Below, piece by piece: positions 8,105 through 20,405 of a stretch of DNA of 64,000 nucleotides. The position numbers were made by a program, and so were the translations under genes. The DNA lies in contig CM000431.1 of the NCBI GenBank assembly GCA_000165345.1, positions 672,001 through 736,000 of the forward strand, read 5' to 3'. The stretch's first letter is position 1, and each line of letters starts with the position of its first letter. The notes under the pieces are model-generated. The model saw nothing but the letters and a program-made list of their open reading frames with translations. It made no database searches and was not told where the DNA came from.

Positions 8105-10000
8105 TTATTTTTTAGTAAATACTTTGATTTCTTTCTTGAAAAAATAGATTGAAGCTGATAAAATAAAAATATAGAACATATTTTTCAATTTTAGTACTGG
8201 GGAAACTAACTGGAAGAAAGAAGGCTCATCAGAACTATTAAAAAGGCAATTCTTGTATAGGTTATCGTTGTTATAATTTGAACAAATTTGAGGTAGTCTA
8301 CTCCAGTAAATTTCCTCTTCAAAAACTTTTTGATAAACGTTGGTTAATGTTTTGAGAATAGAAAACCTATCACCGTCAAAATCTATCAGTAAAAATTCTG
8401 AAGCAGCTACGTTGCGTGAAAGCTCCAAAAAGCCTTTAATCTTAGACATGCTAGGAATTCCCCTAACTTTGCTCAATAGAGCAACTTGAACAGGCTGGAT
8501 AAATAATTCTCCAATATCTTCGTCGGCCTCACTATCAATCATATTACTTGCATTTCCAGAATTCCTTCTAATATTGATATATTTTTGACGAGAAATATCT
8601 AGCGCTCTAACAATTTCTTGATTTTGAGCCATTCCATCTAATCTATCATGTATAATAACTAAACAAATTATTCTATTTAAACTGTTAGACTCGCATAGAT
8701 TCTTAGCATTACTGCTATCAATAAAAGGTACATAAATCTGTTGCGTATAAAGCAGCGACTGTTCTAGTTTCTGTACTAAGGAGGTGGGCCTATTGATAAA
8801 GTTAAATAATTGATCATCTATTTGCCTGGTTTGCAAAACATCTTCATTTGAAAAGCCCCCAAGTGGAATGATAATCTCTGGAGTTAAGTCTGAATCCTTA
8901 AATATGTGCGGAAGCGCAATTAAGTATGGTTTATCATATTCTATTCCCCATTTATAAAGTATGCTATTTTTTTTGTTATTTTGATAATATGCTAACTCGA
9001 AAGTTGAGCTCCATCTTAATGCAAATGAACGAATTAATAATGTTGGTGAAGGTTTGTTAGAAAGAATTAATATTTTTGGCCTATACAAATTATTCTTTTT
9101 TAACCATCCAGTTAACGATTTCTCTGAATTTAATAGACCCAAAGTCATCGGAAAAGAGTTGGAGAGAAATTCCAAGAAAGATTCTAAACTTGGATCATAA
9201 ATTTTGGAATACATTTCGTATTGGTATCCACTTGTGATAATAAAAATTGCAGGAAATACCTTTACGCTTAATGGTAGTTTTTTAAGTAATGAATTTTCTT
9301 TTTTGGCGTGAATTCTTCCAAATTTGTAATATTTCCCCATTTCTTCAATAGATTCCTCCCAAATAGAAGAAAAATGGTGACAAAGTTCATCATGATCCGT
9401 ATAAACCTGTATAACCCATGAATTAGTTTTCTGAAGCATTACCAAGTTGTCAAAGTTATCGGATGTTAAGGTAACTGCAGCTGAAGGAATTATCTCAATC
9501 TCACCGCCTTGAGTAGTATCGTAAACTTGTCTTTTTTCATTATCACCCAGTATTTCATATGCTTTCGAAATATCTCTAAACTTCTCCAAGCACGGTTCAC
9601 AATCTGGATTTTTGTCAGGATGCCATACCAAGCTAAGCTTTCTGAATGCCTTTCTGATTTCTAAGTTAGATGATTTCTTTGTTACCCCCAAAACTTCGTA
9701 GTAATTCTTTTGGTTTTCATTTTTGTTTAGCTTCCCACTAATGCTGTAAAATTCTTCCCCTGCTCTTAAAATAATTGTGGAGATCAAAATACAAAGAATT
9801 AACAATAATATAGATAGATTTATTATTGTCTCCTTAAGTTCCGCCCATTTGAAACTTTGAAGGTAACTCAGTAAAGAATTTTGTGATGATTGAAACTTTT
9901 TCAAGTTATTCTCTGTGGTGCCATTAGTGTTCCCAAAATTAGCATTTCTCTGCAGTACAGAATTTAATTCTTGCTTATTGCTGCTTTTTTTTTTACCCAT
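8105..10000 (-). CDS. DnaJ (J-domain) protein with TM segment and thioredoxin-like domain, DNAJC16/ERdj8-like
   Basis: 631 aa. TM helix ILLLILCILISTIIL, then a J domain with HPD motif (NYYEVLGVTKKSSNLEIRKAFRKLSLVWHPDKNPD), then a thioredoxin-like region. ATG verified at 9998-10000. Confidence 0.7.
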   Translation of the reverse strand: MGKKKSSNKQELNSVLQRNANFGNTNGTTENNLKKFQSSQNSLLSYLQSFKWAELKETIINLSILLLILCILISTIILRAGEEFYSISGKLNKNENQKNYYEVLGVTKKSSNLEIRKAFRKLSLVWHPDKNPDCEPCLEKFRDISKAYEILGDNEKRQVYDTTQGGEIEIIPSAAVTLTSDNFDNLVMLQKTNSWVIQVYTDHDELCHHFSSIWEESIEEMGKYYKFGRIHAKKENSLLKKLPLSVKVFPAIFIITSGYQYEMYSKIYDPSLESFLEFLSNSFPMTLGLLNSEKSLTGWLKKNNLYRPKILILSNKPSPTLLIRSFALRWSSTFELAYYQNNKKNSILYKWGIEYDKPYLIALPHIFKDSDLTPEIIIPLGGFSNEDVLQTRQIDDQLFNFINRPTSLVQKLEQSLLYTQQIYVPFIDSSNAKNLCESNSLNRIICLVIIHDRLDGMAQNQEIVRALDISRQKYINIRRNSGNASNMIDSEADEDIGELFIQPVQVALLSKVRGIPSMSKIKGFLELSRNVAASEFLLIDFDGDRFSILKTLTNVYQKVFEEEIYWSRLPQICSNYNNDNLYKNCLFNSSDEPSFFQLVSPVLKLKNMFYIFILSASIYFFKKEIKVFTKK

Positions 10001-10065: not shown

Positions 10066-10783
10066 ATGGAGGAAAATAATCAAATATCGCTTTCCCTTTT
10101 AACTTTTTTAAGATATGAGTATTTAAATTATTGTATAAACAAATCATCTGAATTAATTTCAGATGAAAAGAATTTTCAGACTGTAAAACACTCTAAAAAA
10201 CTGTCAATAAGTGGATTACAAGTTTGCAAAGACTCACTAATAAGAGAACTTTCTATGTCAACTCTCGAAGAATCTGGATTTTATTTGGGAATTAGATTAG
10301 TTGAAAGGTTAGTGACACGGTTATTCACTGCGCAGCAACACATACTTTAGATTATCAGTATTCCGCCACAGAATTTATGATCAAAAAGAAATAATTAAAT
10401 TTATTTGCAAAGACTTATGGAACTTCATATTTCTCAAACAAGCAGATAGGCTCAAGACAAACAGAAGAGTAAGTTAATATTCTAATTAATGTTTTGAAAC
10501 ACGTTTTCAGGGTGGTTACGCAATATTAGATAACGAGTTAATATGGCTTTCAAAACTGCCAAGCTCGATTAGCGCAAACTCTAGAAAAGTGCAATTTGAA
10601 CCAGCAATCAACGTCATTATTGTATGTGGAATTATCAGAGGAGCATTACAGCATTTAGGGCTTACGTGCTCAGTAGCAGCAGAAGTCAGCAAGATTCCTT
10701 CTTGTAAGTTATTGTCGCGTATATTTTATTTTAATTCAGTTTTAGGCACGTTTCAAATACGTGTATATGCCCCATCAAGGTAA
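10066..10783 (+). CDS. TRAPP complex subunit, Bet3-family fold (best resembles Trs31/TRAPPC5); 3-4 exons
   Basis: Exon 1 is 10066-10307 (ends ...GFYLGIRLVER). Exon 2 is 10372-10468 (RIYDQKEIIKFICKDLWNFIFLKQADRLKTNRR). Exon 3 runs from 10511 (GGYAILDNELIWLSKLP...NVIIVCGIIRGALQHLGL...). A candidate in-frame 42 nt intron lies at 10704-10745, with the last exon 10746-10783 (..TFQIRVYAPSR*). Donors are GTTAGT at 10308 and GTAAGTT at 10469 and 10704. The track shows only fragments at 10066-10350 and 10589-10783. Confidence 0.7.
10308..10371 (+). other. intron 1 of TRAPP subunit gene (64 nt, GTTAGT...CAG). Two alternative in-frame upstream acceptors at 10334/10335 and 10349/10350
   Basis: Exon 1 must end before the in-frame TAG at 10348-10350. 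The only good donor is GTTAGT at 10308. The three downstream AGs (10335, 10350, 10371) are all in frame with exon 2. The 10371 acceptor gives the best length match to TRAPPC5. Confidence 0.5.
10469..10510 (+). other. intron 2 of TRAPP subunit gene (42 nt, GTAAGTT...TTTTCAG)
   Basis: Exon 2 ends in phase 0 at 10468. Exon 3 starts at 10511 and continues the Bet3-family alignment. Confidence 0.6.
10704..10745 (+). other. candidate in-frame 42 nt intron or retained intron near the 3' end of the TRAPP subunit gene
   Basis: GTAAGTT donor identical to the intron 2 donor, with a TTTTAG acceptor. Length is a multiple of 3, so the spliced and unspliced forms both end at the same stop (10781-10783). 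The spliced form (..EVSKIPSCTFQIRVY..) fits the TRAPPC5 C-terminus better. Confidence 0.4.
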
Positions 10784-13656: not shown

Positions 13657-15034
13657 CTATATCCACGTTCTTCTGAGTATTTTACTTGGTAAATAAGTAT
13701 TCACCAAATAATCACTAGAAATTGATTGGAATGCTTCTAATTCGCATTTATAATTATGTTCATACATCAGTTTGCATTGCCGACAAAGTATCTCACATTC
13801 CTATTTGTGTTAATTGTTACTTGTACTTAATGTTCGTGCTTACCTTTATTGCTGGATCTTCTATTAGTGATTTCAAGGTGGATCTATCTTTTTCGGATAG
13901 AATAACCCTTGTCTACAAAAAATTAACTTAACTTTTATAGCATTATAACTTACATCGGATGGAATGAGTTCTGTATCTTCAAAATGTATTCCCAAATAAT
14001 ATATACTTGGACAAGCTAAAATATATAAAACAAAATTATGGAGTAAAGTTTATTGTCATACCTGCCAATTGTGATTCAAAATTGCTTGAACCTCGTACGT
14101 ATGTTAGGTATATATTGATGCCATGTGGATCAAAGTCCCCTAAATATAAAGCCTATCAGAACTTATAAGAGGTAATAAAAATAAGTGAGAACTTACTGTA
14201 ATTCCAGATTTACATATAATGTCGGAGACTAATTTCCTAGTTGAAATATCTGGAAAGCCTTTACCTACTTTGAATTATTTATAATAAAAACATTTTTTTA
14301 CATACCCGTAATTACCAAACAAGGAATCCTATTATAAATCTCTCTCTCCATTAAATACTGAAATATCGAAGCCTTTTCAATAACTAATAAATATTTCACA
14401 TTTGTCTTTATTATATATTTACTGTCATTTGGATCAAATATATCTGTGATCGTTGCTCCTGACACTCCAAGTTCTTCAACGTCTAAAAAATCTGAATTCT
14501 AAGAATAATTTGAAAATATAAAAATGTGAACCCTTACTTTATAAATTAGTTTTATTCTTCCGCCAATCATTCCTTTTGGAGAAGGGAATAATCCAAATGA
14601 TATTCTTGGTATCTGCAGGATTTCTGAAAAGTCTAAATTTCAGGTTTATTAATTATCATTATTTTGTTTACTTACTTTGCACTATTCTATTTACTTGGGA
14701 TTGACTCTATAAAGGGTGATTTATTATAAATATTTGTAGTTTAGTACTTACCTTAAAAAGCCAACTATTATGATAGTATAACTCTCTTAATGTTAATTTT
14801 CTACCTCTTTTCTGTGCACTATGTAAAACGTTCGCAATTGAAGTAACTAATTAAATTGTTTAAGTAAATTATTTAAAAAACCAACTTACTCTTTGCAATA
14901 TTAATTACATCATTTTTTCTTCTTGATGAGCCAATAATATATTGATCGCATTGTAAAGATTCAATCCAATTTAGTGTATTAAAAGATGTAGATTTCCCCA
15001 AATTAAATAAAACAATATCTTCAATAAAATTCAT
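13657..15034 (-). CDS. SPO11: Spo11 / topoisomerase VI subunit A-like meiotic DSB transesterase; 10 exons, 9 short introns
   Basis: Exons on the minus strand: 14890-15034, 14752-14804, 14676-14706 (31 nt micro-exon), 14538-14632, 14306-14498, 14197-14264, 14062-14152, 13954-14015, 13844-13912, 13657-13800. The total is 951 nt (316 aa). Introns are 39-85 nt with GTAAGT, GTATGT, GTAAGG or GTAAGC donors and AG acceptors. Phase is consistent throughout. The protein carries the catalytic-Tyr motif (RKLTLRELYYHNSWLF), a 5Y-CAP/WHD segment (ISFGLFPSPKGMIGG), a Toprim region with Glu (LLVIEKASIFQYL), ITGKGFPDISTRKLV, a DxD motif (ALYLGDFDPHGINIY), then LGIHFEDTELIPSD and a C-terminal KCELEAF...YLPSKI. 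The ORF track has no call here. Confidence 0.8.
14676..14706 (-). other. 31 nt micro-exon (exon 3) of Spo11
   Basis: Encodes SQSQVNRIVQ(N). Flanked by a 45 nt intron (14707-14751) and a 43 nt intron (14633-14675). It is required to keep the frame between the RELYY exon and the SPKGMIGG exon. Confidence 0.55.
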
Positions 15035-15214
15035 TTATACTTCATTAAGCAAAAGCAACAAAATAAATAATTTACCTCCCTTCTAAATAGTTGTATATTT
15101 ATAAGTATTTCAATATAATTTTTTTCCTGGTTATTTTTTTATCTTGAAAATCTAATAATTTTTTAAATTACCGCAATAAAGAAAACATTTATTATTAAAT
15201 TGTACCACATTATA

Positions 15215-18200
15215 ATGGTAAAAATAACGAATGATGAAAATGAAAGGACGATTATATTGAATAATAAAAATGAAGAAAGCTTTATCCATTCATTCAAAAG
15301 ACTTAATGTAATAAAAACAGCAAGATATTCTCTTTTATTTTTTTTACCAAAAAATCTATATGATCAATTTAACAATGTTGCAAATATTTACTTTTTGGCA
15401 ATAGGTATTATGCAAATGGTACCTTCAATATCATCATCTGGTGGAATCCCTACAATAGCTCTTCCTTTAATATGTATGTTATGTTTTTCTGCGGCGCAAG
15501 CAGCATATGAAGATTGGAAAAGACATAAAGCAGACTCAGAAATAAACAACCTTCCTACGTATGCATATGATCCAATTAAAGGTAATTTTGCAGTCACAAA
15601 ATGGGGTGATTTGAAGAACGGAGATCTTGTAATTGTTAAAAATAGAGAAATTTTTCCTGCTGATATGGTATTACTTGCCTCTAGTCAAAATGATAATCGA
15701 GTGTTTGTCGAGACTGCCTCAATGGACGGTGAAACAAACCTAAAGCTTCGAGAAAGCCCTAGAATTCTTTTTAATAATGGAGTTAGAAATATTAGTGATA
15801 TCCTTACTATTTCAAAAGGTATAATGTATTGTGGGGAGCCAAATGATCACCCAAAAAAGATACATATAAATTCAAAATTTGTGTTGAAAAATTCTAAGGA
15901 CGATGAAAAAGAACTCAATTTTTCGTGTAATTCATCAAATATGTTATTACGTGGGTGTAAGCTAAGAAACACCTCATGGGCACTTGGCGTTGTGGCATAC
16001 ACTGCTCATGAAACGAAAATTTATCAAAGCAGTTTTAGATCAGCCCCACATAAAATGAGTAATGTACAATCTTTATATAACCAAGTAACTATTGCATCAT
16101 TCATCTTCTTGTTGTTTATTTGCCTTTCTTTTGGAATTATTGTAGCTTGCATTGATTACTTTGGAGGACCAGAATTGTCGAAAAAGTTTATTCCAATTGG
16201 GAAAATGGAGCCCAACGAAAGTGTGATTAAAACTTCAATAATTACTTTTTTTACCTGGATTATTGTTCTTGCAAATCTAATACCTATTGGAATGTTTTTT
16301 TATTTAGTAATATCCAAAGTTTCACAAGCAATAATCATTGCTTCAGATTCTAGATTAACAAGTCAAAACTCTACTGTTGTAAGGAATTCAGATTTAAATG
16401 ACGAGCTAGGTCAGGTATCTTATATTTGTACTGACAAAACAGGAACATTAACAAGGAATTACATGGAATTCAAAACTGTTTGTATTAACGGAAACGTATA
16501 TGGAGGTAACCATCACGAAATGAGGCAAGATACAGATCAATTGAGTATTGAACACACAGAAAAACAAAAAATAACTCCGCATGTTGACATGGAAGATGAA
16601 TTACTGAGAAAAAACTTAAAAGAAGGAAATAAGGAAGAGATAGAAATACTATTGAATTTTGCTCTAAACCATACAGTATTAATACAAGAAAATGAGGTTG
16701 ATTTAGATGAACCACCTCTCTATTCGGCAAGTTCAACTGATGAGGAAGCGCTTGTATTAGCTTCCCACCACTTTGGAATATCACTAGTTTCCCAAAACTG
16801 CTCAAAAAGTACAATTAAATTTTCTGGGATAGGAACTAACCAAACTTCTGTTGAGTTTGAAACATTGCTAAGATTTGAATTTGACCACGCAAGAAAAATA
16901 AGTTCAGTATTGGTAAAATTCCCAAAAAAAATCTTTAGTTACGAGTCAAATGATTCAGATGGTTATAGGTATATCCTATTTTCTAAAGGATCGGAATCTG
17001 CAATAAAAGAATGTTGTGTTAATCAAGAAAGTTTGGATATTGCTAATGAAACATTTGAATATGCAACAGAATTTGCTAGTAATGGCTATAGGACACTGTG
17101 TTTTGCAAAAAAAGAACTTAGTGAAAATGAAGTTATTGATATTTTAAATAACTTTAAACATGACAATAAAATTCATTTAGAAGAAGTTAGAACATTCTTT
17201 GAAAGCAACTTGACTCTACAGGGGTGTTCCGGAATTGAAGATATCTTACAGCACCGTGCCCAGGAAACGATTGAGTCACTGATTGCTTCAGGTATCAAAG
17301 TTTGGATGCTTACCGGCGATCGACAAGAAACTGCAATAAACATTGCAGTTAGGGTTGGAATCATTTCAGATGAAATGGAAGTTATTATTTTTGATGAAAA
17401 TAAACTTGAATCATTTTCAAATAATTTAATTAAAGAATTTCCCGATAGATCAAGTTTTTTGAATAGAGAAAATGGCTCATTCAATTTCTCAAATGTAGTA
17501 TTAGTCATTGATTCCAAAATATTGGAAAAGGCCCTAGTAATTGATGAAGCTAAATTTGCAAAAATTGCAACAAAATGTTCATCTGTAGTTTGTTCTAGAG
17601 TTACACCTCAACAAAAAGCACAAGTTGTCAAGTTAATTCAGGAATTTACAAAGCAAAGAGTATTAGCAATTGGTGATGGCGGAAATGACTGTACTATGTT
17701 ACAAACTGCAAATGTTGGTGTTGGCATCCATGGTTCAGAAGGCATGCAAGCTTATAATGTATCTGATTTTGGTATTTCCCAATTCTGTCATCTTCAACCT
17801 TTGGTTCTTATACACGGAAGGCTCTGTTACAGAAGAACATCTATTTTGGTGCTATATAACCTTTACAAATGTTTTACTCTAAATATTGTGAGTGTTTATT
17901 TTGGTTTTGCATCGCTTTTCACAGGGTCTAAATTGTTTTTTGAATTACTATTCCAGTTATATAACTTTCTATATACTTCAGTACCTCCCATAATTTTTGC
18001 AACATTTGATTCAGATATTCCAATTACATTACCATATGATTATCACGAGCCACTTTATTTATTAGGCATAACCAAGCCATTCTTTTCATTAAAAATATTT
18101 GGGATTTGGTCCATGAATGCTGTTTTCCATGCAGCGGTATCATTGTTCATTCCTTACTTTATTTTGGGAGGCAACAATCCAATATCAAATGATGGATACG

Positions 18201-18776: not shown

Positions 18777-20405
18777 TTAATCAAACGAATGAGTGTTACC
18801 TCTTGAATAAGTATTCCCCAATAGATATTCTTTATCAAATTCATTCTTAATAAACTTAGATTTATCAATCACTTTTCTTTCTTGCTTGAAATAATCATTC
18901 GTTGCCTTACCTTCTAAGTAGTTCTTTAAAATGCTTTCACCTCCTAAACCCCAAACTTCAATATCTGCGACGCTGAATTTATTGATTTCTGTTGTTGATT
19001 CATCGCTCTCTCCAGAATATGGAGTACCTAATAATAAACAACTATTTCTTTTACCAGAATTATTACTAGGTTGATAAAGCATTCCAATATTGTACGTAAG
19101 ATCGCTTTTCAAACAAGTTCCAGTGCCTAGTGTAGAGTCCAGCCATAATCTGGAGTACTCTGGCTCTCCCCCAAACCCTATTCCTTTCGGAGAAAAATCA
19201 TATCTTGTATTAATATACATAAAATTTCTACCTTTGCCAGACTGTCCAATTATAGAAAACATTGGTCTAAGAGATGTTAAAAAACACGTTTCATCTCCAC
19301 AATATTTTCCGTTGCCTTCTTTCCAATCTCCAGTGCAAACTGAACCAAATATACAATTGTCAGTGGTCTTAATCAATAATAAAACATTAGATGAATATCC
19401 TTCTATTAGTGATACTAGCCTATTCAAGCTTAATCCATGTTTCCAACTAGCATATAGCAAATTCCATGGTTGAAAAAGTGTTAAACATTCTCCGCTTGAC
19501 GCATCACCAAAATACTGGCATCGTAAAATGCAGCAGTGTTCAGTTGAGAGCACACGGCTATTATCGTCAATCCAGCGGCTTAACTTAAAGAGGTCTAGCG
19601 AAGAAATGCATCCACCATTTTGGGAATCATTGTGACAATCTTTTTGCCTATTGCAATTGTTATCATTATTTTTGTTGTATTCATCTTGAATTAAGTTTAT
19701 ACCTTCCATAAAAGAGTTTTGAACATTGTTCGGATGTGAAATCATGTCGAAATGAACTCGAATTGATAGTTTCATAAAAAAAGCAAAAAGAGGGAGGTAT
19801 TCCTGAATAAAATCTGAAATTAAACCAACGGATGATTGTTTTGAGCAATTAATCATCTTTTTTTTGTAATACTCTTTAACAATAAATTCAAAGTCCAAGT
19901 ATGATGTAAGAGAGATCAAATGTTGATCAATATTGTTTGGTTTCAAAGATAAAATAGAAGATTTTGAATCACATAGAAGGAAACTTATCTCAAAATAAAC
20001 AATAGAAAATATTACTCTAAGCGCATCCAATTCATCTGATATATTTGATGTTACATATTCAGAAACTTTGTTGATTATTCCTTTCTTGTTACAATACAAA
20101 ATAGAATCCACGCATTTAACAAAATCAGTTAAATTTACTTTTCCAAAATCATCTTCGCAGCAAAAAGAAAAAAAACCCAGATAAAATCTTCTAAGAATTG
20201 CAGGAAACCGATTCTCTATTAAATTTAGATCTATTCTAAAGTCTTTTTTTATACTTTCGAAATTCAAGTCATTAATTCCAAATAAATTACCTATTTTTTT
20301 CAGCTCTGCCTGATCCAGATTACACCAGGAATAGTTATTACACACACCACCACTTTTACTGTTTTCAAGTAATTTATTTTCTTCAGTACTTTTAATATTG
20401 CCCAT
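18777..20405 (-). CDS. TLDc-domain protein (OXR1/NCOA7-like) with N-terminal myristoylation consensus
   Basis: 542 aa. N-terminus is MGNIKS (MGxxxS). A C-terminal TLDc domain (LLYASWKHGLSLNRLVSLIEGYSSNVLLLIKTTDNCIFGSVCTGDWKEG...GIGFGGEPEYSRLWLDSTLGTGTC...). ATG verified. Confidence 0.75.
   Translation of the reverse strand: MGNIKSTEENKLLENSKSGGVCNNYSWCNLDQAELKKIGNLFGINDLNFESIKKDFRIDLNLIENRFPAILRRFYLGFFSFCCEDDFGKVNLTDFVKCVDSILYCNKKGIINKVSEYVTSNISDELDALRVIFSIVYFEISFLLCDSKSSILSLKPNNIDQHLISLTSYLDFEFIVKEYYKKKMINCSKQSSVGLISDFIQEYLPLFAFFMKLSIRVHFDMISHPNNVQNSFMEGINLIQDEYNKNNDNNCNRQKDCHNDSQNGGCISSLDLFKLSRWIDDNSRVLSTEHCCILRCQYFGDASSGECLTLFQPWNLLYASWKHGLSLNRLVSLIEGYSSNVLLLIKTTDNCIFGSVCTGDWKEGNGKYCGDETCFLTSLRPMFSIIGQSGKGRNFMYINTRYDFSPKGIGFGGEPEYSRLWLDSTLGTGTCLKSDLTYNIGMLYQPSNNSGKRNSCLLLGTPYSGESDESTTEINKFSVADIEVWGLGGESILKNYLEGKATNDYFKQERKVIDKSKFIKNEFDKEYLLGNTYSRGNTHSFD

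What the first reader, a model, noticed from the sequence alone, without database searches (positions are those of the whole stretch)
13657..15034. Ten-exon Spo11 gene hidden in a region the ORF track shows as empty
The 1.4 kb between CENP-C and the P4-ATPase has no ORF of 60 aa or more. It is dense in minus-strand GTAAGT/GTATGT donors and AG acceptors. Splicing nine 39-85 nt introns, including a 31 nt micro-exon, yields a 316-aa protein with every Spo11/Top6A landmark: catalytic Tyr in RELYY, SPKGMIGG, the Toprim Glu in VIEKASIF, ITGKGFPDISTRKLV and the DxD in GDFDPHG. The N-terminal region before the catalytic Tyr is only about 60 aa, so an upstream exon or an unusually short N-terminus is possible. 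A core meiotic gene with this many introns contrasts with the otherwise intron-poor neighbourhood. It implies a meiosis-capable organism.
Basis: partly seen in the sequence, partly recalled or inferred. Interest (0 to 1): 0.6.

Follow-up and report, generated by a model that had tools for sequence, protein, structure and literature searches.

The report
Ten-exon Cryptosporidium SPO11-2 gene (cgd3_2720)
The apparently empty 1.4 kb holds a real, already catalogued ten-exon Spo11-family gene of the parasite Cryptosporidium parvum; it is unusual only for its nine tiny introns in an intron-poor genome and for being mis-annotated in most public C. parvum records.

Summary
On the minus strand, 15034-13657, nine GT..AG introns join ten exons into one open frame. 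The product matches both Spo11/Top6A Pfam domains (Toprim 1.6e-44 over the full profile; TP6A_N 5.8e-16).

The protein is 330 aa, not 316, and the introns are 39-46 nt, not 39-85. No further 5' exon is needed.

The window is Cryptosporidium parvum chromosome 3 and the gene is cgd3_2720. All nine intron positions, including the 31-nt micro-exon, recur in C. andersoni and in chipmunk genotype I. dN/dS is 0.16.

A tree, clade HMM scores and the RELYY motif place it in the SPO11-2 paralogue clade, not true topo VI-A. Published RNA-seq shows about 20-fold higher expression in female gametes, alongside the second paralogue cgd8_1350.

The full 330-aa model already exists for C. hominis, and by matching identity (0.964) in the 2015 C. 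parvum re-annotation. The C. parvum protein records I retrieved, all from NCBI/GenBank, are truncated, split or exon-skipping.

Verdict: real, correctly read, already known, low novelty.

The parts
13657..15034 (-). Whole coding region of the C. parvum SPO11-2 gene (cgd3_2720): 10 exons, 9 introns, 330 aa plus TAG
   Evidence: Spliced model. Pfam TOP6A-Spo11_Toprim 1.6e-44 and TP6A_N 5.8e-16. Gap-free alignment with the 330-aa C. hominis product, 318/330 identical.
14890..15034 (-). Exon 1 (145 nt), ATG at 15034-15032; short N-terminal helix region
   Evidence: In-frame TAA at 15037-15035. Same start Met in the full-length orthologues aligned.
14847..14889 (-). Intron 1, 43 nt, GTAAGT..AG, phase 1; position shared with the T. 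gondii orthologue
14752..14846 (-). Exon 2 (95 nt): winged-helix segment with R69 and the catalytic Tyr motif RELYY (Y73 codon 14775-14773)
   Evidence: Y73 invariant in alignments A1 and A3. Codon coordinates. Aligns with the Tyr motif of archaeal Top6A.
14707..14751 (-). Intron 2, 45 nt, GTAAGT..AG
   Evidence: Position conserved in C. andersoni and chipmunk genotype I.
14676..14706 (-). Exon 3, 31-nt micro-exon (SQSQVNRIVQ)
   Evidence: 31 nt in C. parvum, chipmunk genotype I and C. andersoni.
14633..14675 (-). Intron 3, 43 nt, GTAAGT..AG
   Evidence: The 43-nt option is the one that keeps the product collinear with the orthologues.
14538..14632 (-). Exon 4 (95 nt), SPKGMIGG
14499..14537 (-). 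Intron 4, 39 nt, GTAAGG..AG
14306..14498 (-). Exon 5 (193 nt): start of the Toprim domain, catalytic Glu E163 in VIEKASIF (codon 14378-14376)
   Evidence: E163 invariant. Coordinates.
14265..14305 (-). Intron 5, 41 nt, GTATGT..AG; splits the Gly187 codon and creates ITGKGFPD
14197..14264 (-). Exon 6 (68 nt), GKGFPDISTRKLV
14153..14196 (-). Intron 6, 44 nt, GTAAGT..AG, phase 0; position shared with T. gondii
14062..14152 (-). Exon 7 (91 nt): metal-binding DxD (D215 14137-14135, D217 14131-14129) in GDFDPHG
   Evidence: D215 is invariant in both alignments; D217 is invariant in A1 and at least 90% conserved in A3. Coordinates.
14016..14061 (-). Intron 7, 46 nt, GTATGA..AG
13954..14015 (-). Exon 8 (62 nt)
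13913..13953 (-). Intron 8, 41 nt, GTAAGT..AG
13844..13912 (-). Exon 9 (69 nt)
13801..13843 (-). Intron 9, 43 nt, GTAAGC..AG
   Evidence: The 1999-era partial model XP_001388116 reads into this intron.
13657..13800 (-). Exon 10 (144 nt including TAG at 13659-13657), C-terminal helices
15035..15214 (.). 180-bp intergenic region shared with the divergently transcribed P4-ATPase (ATG at 15215, + strand); presumed bidirectional promoter, no further Spo11 exon
   Evidence: Same head-to-head arrangement in C. andersoni and chipmunk genotype I.

Best explanation
This is the Cryptosporidium parvum gene cgd3_2720. It is the SPO11-2 paralogue of the Spo11/topoisomerase VI-A family, encoded in ten exons separated by nine near-minimal (39-46 nt) spliceosomal introns.

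The 330-aa product has a winged-helix domain carrying the catalytic tyrosine (Y73 in RELYY). It also has a Toprim domain with the metal-binding E163 and D215-x-D217.

Inferred mechanism: after fertilisation it makes programmed meiotic DNA double-strand breaks by a topoisomerase-like transesterification. It probably acts together with the second paralogue (cgd8_1350, presumed SPO11-1) and the apicomplexan topo VIB-like subunit, as the SPO11-1/SPO11-2 pair does in plants.

Shown here:
- gene structure
- family and domain membership
- conservation of intron positions
- purifying selection

Taken from published data: female-gamete-biased transcription. Inferred only: catalytic activity, the partners, and the reason the introns were retained.

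The most economical explanation for the intron richness is passive retention of ancestral introns. A briefly and weakly expressed gene would escape cDNA-mediated intron loss. At least two intron positions are shared with Toxoplasma.
For: - Spliced product: Pfam TOP6A-Spo11_Toprim 1.6e-44 (positions 1-170 of 170) and TP6A_N 5.8e-16.
- PDB sequence hits are only Top6A and yeast Spo11.
- An AlphaFold model of the 86%-identical orthologue finds only Top6A/Spo11 chains at E <= 0.001.
- Species: the deposited C. parvum fragments match the model residue for residue, apart from segments where those records are mis-spliced.
- Exon lengths are 145/95/31/95/193/68/91/62/69/144 in C. parvum and chipmunk genotype I, and 142/95/31/95/199/68/91/62/69/144 in C. 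andersoni. C. andersoni is 52% identical at the protein level and its introns are 58-95 nt.
- Exon nucleotide identity is 0.886 against 0.760 for introns, and dN/dS is 0.156.
- SPO11-2 assignment:
  - In an NJ tree the apicomplexan clade is sister to a clade that is 28/31 DxN-motif and includes a plant sequence. It is separated from animal SPO11 in 78 of 100 bootstraps.
  - Clade HMM scores are 277 bits against 243 and 251.
  - RELYY (T. gondii TQRELFY) matches the SPO11-2 motif RELFY rather than the SPO11-1 motif RDI[FY]Y in Fig. S1 of PMC11302465.
  - That paper finds one SPO11-1, one SPO11-2 and no topo VI in Apicomplexa, including Cryptosporidium.
- Expression of cgd3_2720: mean log2 1.64 in asexual stages against 5.98 and 5.65 in sorted females, logFC 4.34. 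It rises at 48 h in culture (PMC6877471 supplements).
- cgd3_2720 shares an orthologue group with cgd8_1350, annotated 'Spo11/DNA topoisomerase 6 subunit A'.
Against: - I examined no junction-spanning reads. Splice sites rest on comparative evidence and on annotations made by others.
- The SPO11-2 placement has only moderate NJ support. The internal branches are short and no maximum-likelihood tree was run.
- I never retrieved the second Cryptosporidium paralogue, so assignment by elimination is indirect.
- The protein keeps DFD, not the DxN of plant SPO11-2.
- In Plasmodium, SPO11-2 is reported as essential in asexual stages (PMC11302465). A non-meiotic role for this paralogue therefore cannot be excluded.
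- The link between cgd3_2720 and this locus is inferred from three things: gene order (TRAPP cgd3_2700, cupin protein cgd3_2710), orthologue-group membership, and the 0.964 identity match. It was not read from a coordinate table.
Confidence: 0.85

Rival explanations
1. It is the A subunit of a genuine type IIB topoisomerase (topo VI, SPO11-3-like). On this view it decatenates or relaxes DNA during the parasite's multiple rounds of nuclear division, and is not a meiotic break-maker. This is what the database name 'topoisomerase VIA' suggests.
For: - Public names for the orthologues are 'topoisomerase VIA' or 'DNA topoisomerase (ATP-hydrolyzing)'.
- The best PDB sequence and fold matches are archaeal Top6A rather than yeast Spo11.
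- Decatenation activity has been reported for a P. falciparum Spo11 paralogue together with its B subunit (cited in PMC11302465 and PMC9261774).
Against: - The phylogeny in PMC11302465 finds no SPO11-3, TOP6B, RHL1 or BIN4 in Apicomplexa, including Cryptosporidium.
- My tree and HMM scores favour the SPO11-2 clade.
- Transcription is nearly off in asexual, replicating stages and on in females.
- The better match to archaeal Top6A is expected anyway, because yeast Spo11 is highly divergent.
Confidence: 0.07
2. The nine conserved mini-introns are functional. On this view stage-specific splicing, or intron retention in asexual stages, gates production of an active DNA-breaking enzyme until meiosis, as in the regulated meiotic splicing of yeasts.
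For: - Ten exons is the maximum reported for C. parvum, where about 90% of genes have no intron (PMC4637869).
- All nine positions and the 31-nt micro-exon are kept across the genus although intron sequences diverge.
- Every intron blocks the reading frame, by a stop codon or a frameshift, if it is retained.
Against: - There are no data on retained-intron transcripts.
- Transcript abundance itself changes about 20-fold between stages, which is enough for regulation.
- The neighbouring housekeeping-type TRAPP gene also has three 42-43-nt introns, so short introns are not special to this gene.
- Conservation of intron position is the neutral expectation once the rate of intron loss is low.
Confidence: 0.08
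3. It is a decaying pseudogene or a chance concatenation of short ORFs.
For: - There is no long ORF.
- Several public C. parvum models are partial or split.
Against: - dN/dS is 0.156.
- The frame stays intact with identical exon phases in three species.
- All catalytic residues are retained.
- The Pfam E-value is 1e-44.
- Expression is regulated.
Confidence: 0.005

Closest known systems
C. hominis UdeA01 CHUDEA3_2720 (CUV05184.1, 330 aa) and the 2015 re-annotated C. parvum cgd3_2720
   Same: Orthologous or the same gene. The product has the same 330-aa length and is collinear without gaps, with 318/330 residues identical. That equals the 0.964 identity tabulated for CHUDEA3_2720 versus cgd3_2720.
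   Different: Nothing substantive. The exact C. parvum 330-aa sequence is simply absent from the 15-billion-protein collection searched.
Plant SPO11-2 (for example the Arabidopsis thaliana SPO11-2 clade)
   Same: It shares the clade in the NJ tree and in HMM scoring, the RELxY catalytic motif and the Toprim EK motif. It is also co-expressed with a second SPO11 paralogue, which suggests a heterodimer.
   Different: It keeps a canonical DxD (DFD) where plant SPO11-2 has DxN. It is about 50 residues shorter at the N-terminus (330 against about 383 aa for the plant clade member P0050).
Archaeal topoisomerase VI A subunit (1d3y, 2q2e, 2zbk)
   Same: Winged-helix plus Toprim fold and the same catalytic residues. 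These are the best sequence and fold matches in the PDB.
   Different: No canonical TOP6B partner is reported in Apicomplexa (PMC11302465). Expression is restricted to the sexual stage. The gene lies in a eukaryotic SPO11 clade.
Plasmodium SPO11-2 (PF3D7_1027600 family; P. ovale P0027 is the nearest Plasmodium sequence here)
   Same: Same apicomplexan orthologue clade.
   Different: Plasmodium SPO11-2 is reported as essential in asexual blood stages (PMC11302465). The C. parvum gene is almost silent in asexual stages and induced in females.

Membership tests
Spo11/topoisomerase VI-A family (Pfam TP6A_N + TOP6A-Spo11_Toprim) | N-terminal winged-helix (CAP-like) domain matching TP6A_N above the gathering score | tested here: met
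   58.5 bits against a cut-off of 26, residues 46-104.
Spo11/topoisomerase VI-A family (Pfam TP6A_N + TOP6A-Spo11_Toprim) | Full-length Toprim domain | tested here: met
   152.4 bits against a cut-off of 24.1, profile positions 1-170 of 170.
Spo11/topoisomerase VI-A family (Pfam TP6A_N + TOP6A-Spo11_Toprim) | Catalytic Tyr in the R-[DE]-x-[FY]-Y motif, Toprim Glu and DxD metal site | tested here: met
   R69, Y73, E163 and D215 are invariant or at least 90% conserved in both alignments. D217 is invariant in A1 and at least 90% conserved in A3. They align with the archaeal Top6A motifs.
Spo11/topoisomerase VI-A family (Pfam TP6A_N + TOP6A-Spo11_Toprim) | Three-dimensional fold of Top6A/Spo11 | tested here: met
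   AlphaFold2 model of the 86%-identical chipmunk genotype I orthologue (pLDDT 73.7). The ten Foldseek PDB matches at E <= 0.001 are all Top6A or Spo11. This is a proxy, not the C. parvum sequence itself.
Spo11/topoisomerase VI-A family (Pfam TP6A_N + TOP6A-Spo11_Toprim) | DNA cleavage with a covalent 5'-phosphotyrosyl intermediate | not testable with these tools
   Needs biochemistry or Spo11-oligo mapping.
SPO11-2 paralogue clade | Phylogenetic placement with plant and protist SPO11-2, apart from SPO11-1 and SPO11-3/topo VI-A | tested here: met
   In the NJ tree the gene groups with the DxN clade and excludes named animal and metamonad SPO11 in 78 of 100 bootstraps. HMM scores are 277 bits against 243 and 251. 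Support is moderate and no ML tree was run.
SPO11-2 paralogue clade | DxN substitution in the metal-binding motif (always in plants, sometimes in protists, per PMC11302465) | tested here: not met
   The C. parvum motif is DFD. This feature is not obligatory for protist SPO11-2.
SPO11-2 paralogue clade | A second, SPO11-1 paralogue in the same genome | tested here: inconclusive
   cgd8_1350 is listed in the same orthologue group, and Cryptosporidium is tabulated with 2 SPO11 genes. I never retrieved or placed its sequence.
True topoisomerase VI (A2B2) | Canonical TOP6B partner with H2TH and a long transducer helix, plus RHL1 and BIN4 in eukaryotes | not tested
   Reported absent in Apicomplexa, with C. 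ubiquitum as the Cryptosporidium representative, by PMC11302465. Not re-examined here.
Meiosis-specific gene | Expression restricted to sexual or meiotic stages | tested here: met
   From published data only: logFC 4.34 for female versus asexual, and induction at 48 h (PMC6877471 supplements).

The most novel reading that the evidence does not exclude
The genus-wide retention of nine frame-blocking mini-introns and a 31-nt micro-exon in SPO11-2 would be functional. This gene has the maximum exon count reported for a genome in which about 90% of genes have lost all introns. Splicing efficiency, or intron retention in asexual stages, would then act as a safety gate that stops a DNA-breaking enzyme being made outside meiosis. 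Once made, the enzyme would work as a plant-like SPO11-1/SPO11-2 heterodimer.
Probability: 0.08. Interest if true: 0.55.

Novelty: already known. Interest (0 to 1): 0.2.

Why it matters
It matters mainly for annotation. The C. parvum protein records I retrieved for this locus are a 235-aa partial, 201 + 56 aa, 239 + 56 aa, and a 271-aa exon-skipping model. They include those from the long-read IOWA-ATCC and BGF assemblies. All but the 271-aa model lack the catalytic tyrosine, either entirely or because they are split into two genes; the 271-aa model keeps the tyrosine but drops conserved segments. The exact 330-aa product is not in the 15-billion-protein collection searched. Anyone surveying meiotic genes or planning a Y73F or knockout experiment in C. 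parvum should use the ten-exon model.

There are two smaller biological points. First, the gene sits at the upper limit of exon number for this genome. Second, this SPO11-2 paralogue is female-induced together with the other paralogue, unlike the reported asexual-stage essentiality of Plasmodium SPO11-2. That fits a plant-like two-paralogue break machine.

Tried and rejected
- **Alternative splice sites.** I enumerated alternatives for introns 3, 5, 6 and 9. I rejected them because only the chosen set gives ITGKGFPD and a gap-free alignment with the three independent 330/331-aa orthologues.
- Orthologues P0001, P0009 and P0012 served as proxies.
- **Word-indexed profile search.** It reached no further than coccidia plus two probable contaminant sequences in insect assemblies, so it did not help paralogue assignment.
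- **Literature search for cgd3_27xx identifiers in main texts.** It found nothing; the identifiers were found only in supplements.
- **Second paralogue.** I did not retrieve cgd8_1350. The last word-indexed search was judged unlikely to surface it among thousands of SPO11-1 hits.
- **Pseudogene and chance-ORF readings.** Rejected on dN/dS and conservation.
- **Neighbouring 878-aa ORF.** Pfam did not confirm it as CENP-C at the curated threshold.

Full report
**1. What is in the sequence**

On the minus strand between 15034 and 13657 no reading frame stays open for more than 55 codons. The three frames nevertheless carry a chain of short open segments.

Consensus donors are concentrated here. 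Five of the 20 minus-strand GTAAGT sites in the 64-kb window fall in these 1.4 kb (Poisson P about 9e-5).

I enumerated GT..AG introns that keep the frame. Ambiguous acceptors were resolved by conservation. The resulting model has ten exons:
- 15034-14890
- 14846-14752
- 14706-14676
- 14632-14538
- 14498-14306
- 14264-14197
- 14152-14062
- 14015-13954
- 13912-13844
- 13800-13657

The nine introns are 43, 45, 43, 39, 41, 44, 46, 41 and 43 nt long, with 15-30% G+C. The product is 330 aa. Every intron would block the frame, by a stop codon or a frameshift, if it were retained.

**2.

Both numbers are reproduced exactly if intron 1 runs 85 nt to the AG at 14806-14805. That choice removes ITSIANVLHSAQKRG. 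This segment is conserved in all full-length orthologues and forms the start of the Pfam TP6A_N match.

No extra 5' exon is needed:
- A TAA lies directly in frame upstream of the ATG.
- Only 180 bp separate that ATG from the start codon of the divergent P4-ATPase at 15215.
- The full-length Cryptosporidium orthologues aligned begin at the same Met.

**3. Family membership**

- The spliced protein matches TOP6A-Spo11_Toprim at 1.6e-44 over the whole profile, and TP6A_N at 5.8e-16.
- Its only PDB sequence relatives are archaeal Top6A chains and yeast Spo11.
- The tools would not accept the spliced sequence. An AlphaFold2 model of the 86%-identical chipmunk genotype I orthologue (pLDDT 73.7) therefore served as a proxy.
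- That model finds only Top6A and Spo11 chains at E <= 0.001 in the PDB.
- R69, Y73, E163, D215 and D217 are invariant or nearly so among the orthologues.

**4. Organism and locus**

The closest database proteins are all from Cryptosporidium. The C. parvum fragments match my model residue for residue, apart from segments where those records are mis-spliced. The window is therefore C. parvum chromosome 3.

The flanking genes fit the published order:
- A TRAPP subunit at 10066-10783 corresponds to cgd3_2700.
- An 878-aa protein with a weak C-terminal cupin/CENP-C_C signal corresponds to cgd3_2710, 'RmlC-like jelly roll'.
- This gene follows as cgd3_2720.
- The P4-ATPase comes next.

The supplements of PMC6877471 list cgd3_2720 as 'unspecified product'. 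They place it in the same orthologue group as cgd8_1350, 'Spo11/DNA topoisomerase 6 subunit A'.

**5. Comparative support for the splice sites**

I mapped the annotated products of C. andersoni (331 aa, 52% identical) and of chipmunk genotype I (330 aa) back onto their own genomic loci.

| Species | Exon lengths (nt) | Intron lengths (nt) |
|---|---|---|
| C. parvum | 145/95/31/95/193/68/91/62/69/144 | 39-46 |
| Chipmunk genotype I | 145/95/31/95/193/68/91/62/69/144 | 40-46 |
| C. andersoni | 142/95/31/95/199/68/91/62/69/144 | 58-95 |

All nine positions and phases, and the 31-nt micro-exon, are thus conserved across the deepest split in the genus.

- Between C. parvum and chipmunk genotype I, exons are 88.6% identical and introns 76.0%. 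Several introns differ in length, and dN/dS is 0.156.
- The head-to-head arrangement with the P4-ATPase is also conserved.
- The T. gondii orthologue has seven introns. Two of them (C. parvum introns 1 and 6) share exact position and phase, and a third lies within one nucleotide of intron 3.
- At least part of the intron set is therefore ancestral.

**6. Which paralogue**

PMC11302465 shows that Apicomplexa, including Cryptosporidium, have two SPO11 paralogues (SPO11-1 and SPO11-2) and a topo VIB-like protein, but no true topo VI.

I ran a full HMMER search with a profile of three orthologues and built an NJ tree of 132 relatives.
- The Cryptosporidium/Toxoplasma/Plasmodium/Babesia group is sister to a 31-member clade.
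- In that clade 28 members carry DxN, the motif that paper gives as the hallmark of plant SPO11-2. It contains a plant (Cuscuta, 383 aa), Cyanophora and Gefionella.
- Human, spider, louse and Blattamonas SPO11 fall in the other large clade.
- The grouping appears in 78 of 100 bootstraps.
- HMMs built from each clade score the C. parvum protein at 277 bits (SPO11-2) against 243 and 251.
- RELYY (T. gondii TQRELFY) matches the RELFY motif of SPO11-2 rather than the RDI[FY]Y of SPO11-1.

I therefore call the gene SPO11-2 with moderate confidence. It keeps a canonical DFD metal site.

**7. Expression, from published data**

| Sample (PMC6877471 supplements) | log2 expression of cgd3_2720 |
|---|---|
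| Sorted asexual stages | mean 1.64 |
| Two sorted female groups | means 5.98 and 5.65 (logFC 4.34) |
| Three further sample groups in a second table | about 2.6, 3.5 and 6.0 |

I take the second table to be the paper's sporozoite, 24 h and 48 h culture samples, although I did not read its column headers. cgd8_1350 behaves similarly, with logFC 3.5.

This fits a meiotic role and a two-paralogue enzyme. It contrasts with the asexual-stage essentiality reported for Plasmodium SPO11-2.

**8. How unusual, and how new**

PMC4637869 reports that about 90% of C. parvum genes lack introns. Intron-containing genes have 2-10 exons, with a mean of 2.6, and mean intron length is 99 nt. This gene therefore sits at the reported maximum exon number and has introns shorter than average.

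The structure is not new, however:
- The C. hominis UdeA01 product CUV05184.1 is 330 aa and is 318/330 identical to my model without gaps.
- That ratio is exactly the 0.964 tabulated for CHUDEA3_2720 versus cgd3_2720 in the supplement of that paper.
- This implies that the 2015 re-annotation of C. parvum already held the same product.

What remains deficient are the C. parvum records in NCBI:
- XP_001388116: 235 aa, partial
- QOY42624 + QOY42625: 201 + 56 aa
- WRK31509 + WRK31510: 239 + 56 aa
- KAL5369623: 271 aa, skipping exons

The exact 330-aa sequence is absent from the 15-billion-protein collection.

**9. Verdict**

The finding is an already known gene.

The only open idea with some novelty is that the conserved frame-blocking mini-introns serve stage-specific control. 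I found no evidence for it. The neighbouring TRAPP gene also carries three 42-43-nt introns.

Noticed in passing
window 10066-10783 (+): A four-exon TRAPP-subunit gene with three introns of 43, 42 and 42 nt. They lie at 10308-10350, 10469-10510 and 10704-10745. The spliced 196-aa product hits Pfam TRAPP at 1.2e-33 over nearly the whole profile. It is probably cgd3_2700. The neighbourhood of the Spo11 gene is therefore not uniformly intron-free.
   Followed up: yes
Its last 277 residues give only a sub-threshold CENP-C_C (cupin) match: E 2.7e-4, 21.6 bits against a cut-off of 29. Published tables call the corresponding gene (cgd3_2710) 'RmlC-like jelly roll fold' and show it about 4-fold higher in females.
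   Followed up: partly
L003 2001-3437 (T. gondii orthologue): The T. gondii SPO11-2 orthologue is modelled with seven introns of only 53-65 nt in a 1.4-kb gene. From my own background knowledge this is short for Toxoplasma introns; I did not check it here. The gene may be compact and rich in mini-introns across coccidia, or the model may be purely computational.
   Followed up: no
P0034 (Hylaeus volcanicus) and P0026 (Ephemera danica) proteins: Two 'insect' SPO11-like proteins are closer to the apicomplexan SPO11-2 group than to animal SPO11. P0034 clusters next to that group in my tree. P0026 was recovered only as a hit of the Cryptosporidium/Toxoplasma profile. They are probably parasite (for example gregarine) contamination in those insect assemblies.
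   Followed up: no
window 15035-15214: Only 180 bp separate the start codons of the female-induced SPO11-2 gene and the divergent P4-ATPase. The spacing is similar (185 bp) in chipmunk genotype I but 514 bp in C. andersoni. This is a very compact bidirectional promoter for two genes that may have different stage profiles.
   Followed up: no
window 8105-10000 (-) and 18777-20405 (-): The flanking ORFs encode a DnaJ-plus-thioredoxin-domain protein (631 aa) and a TLDc-domain protein (542 aa). Both are intronless.
   Followed up: partly
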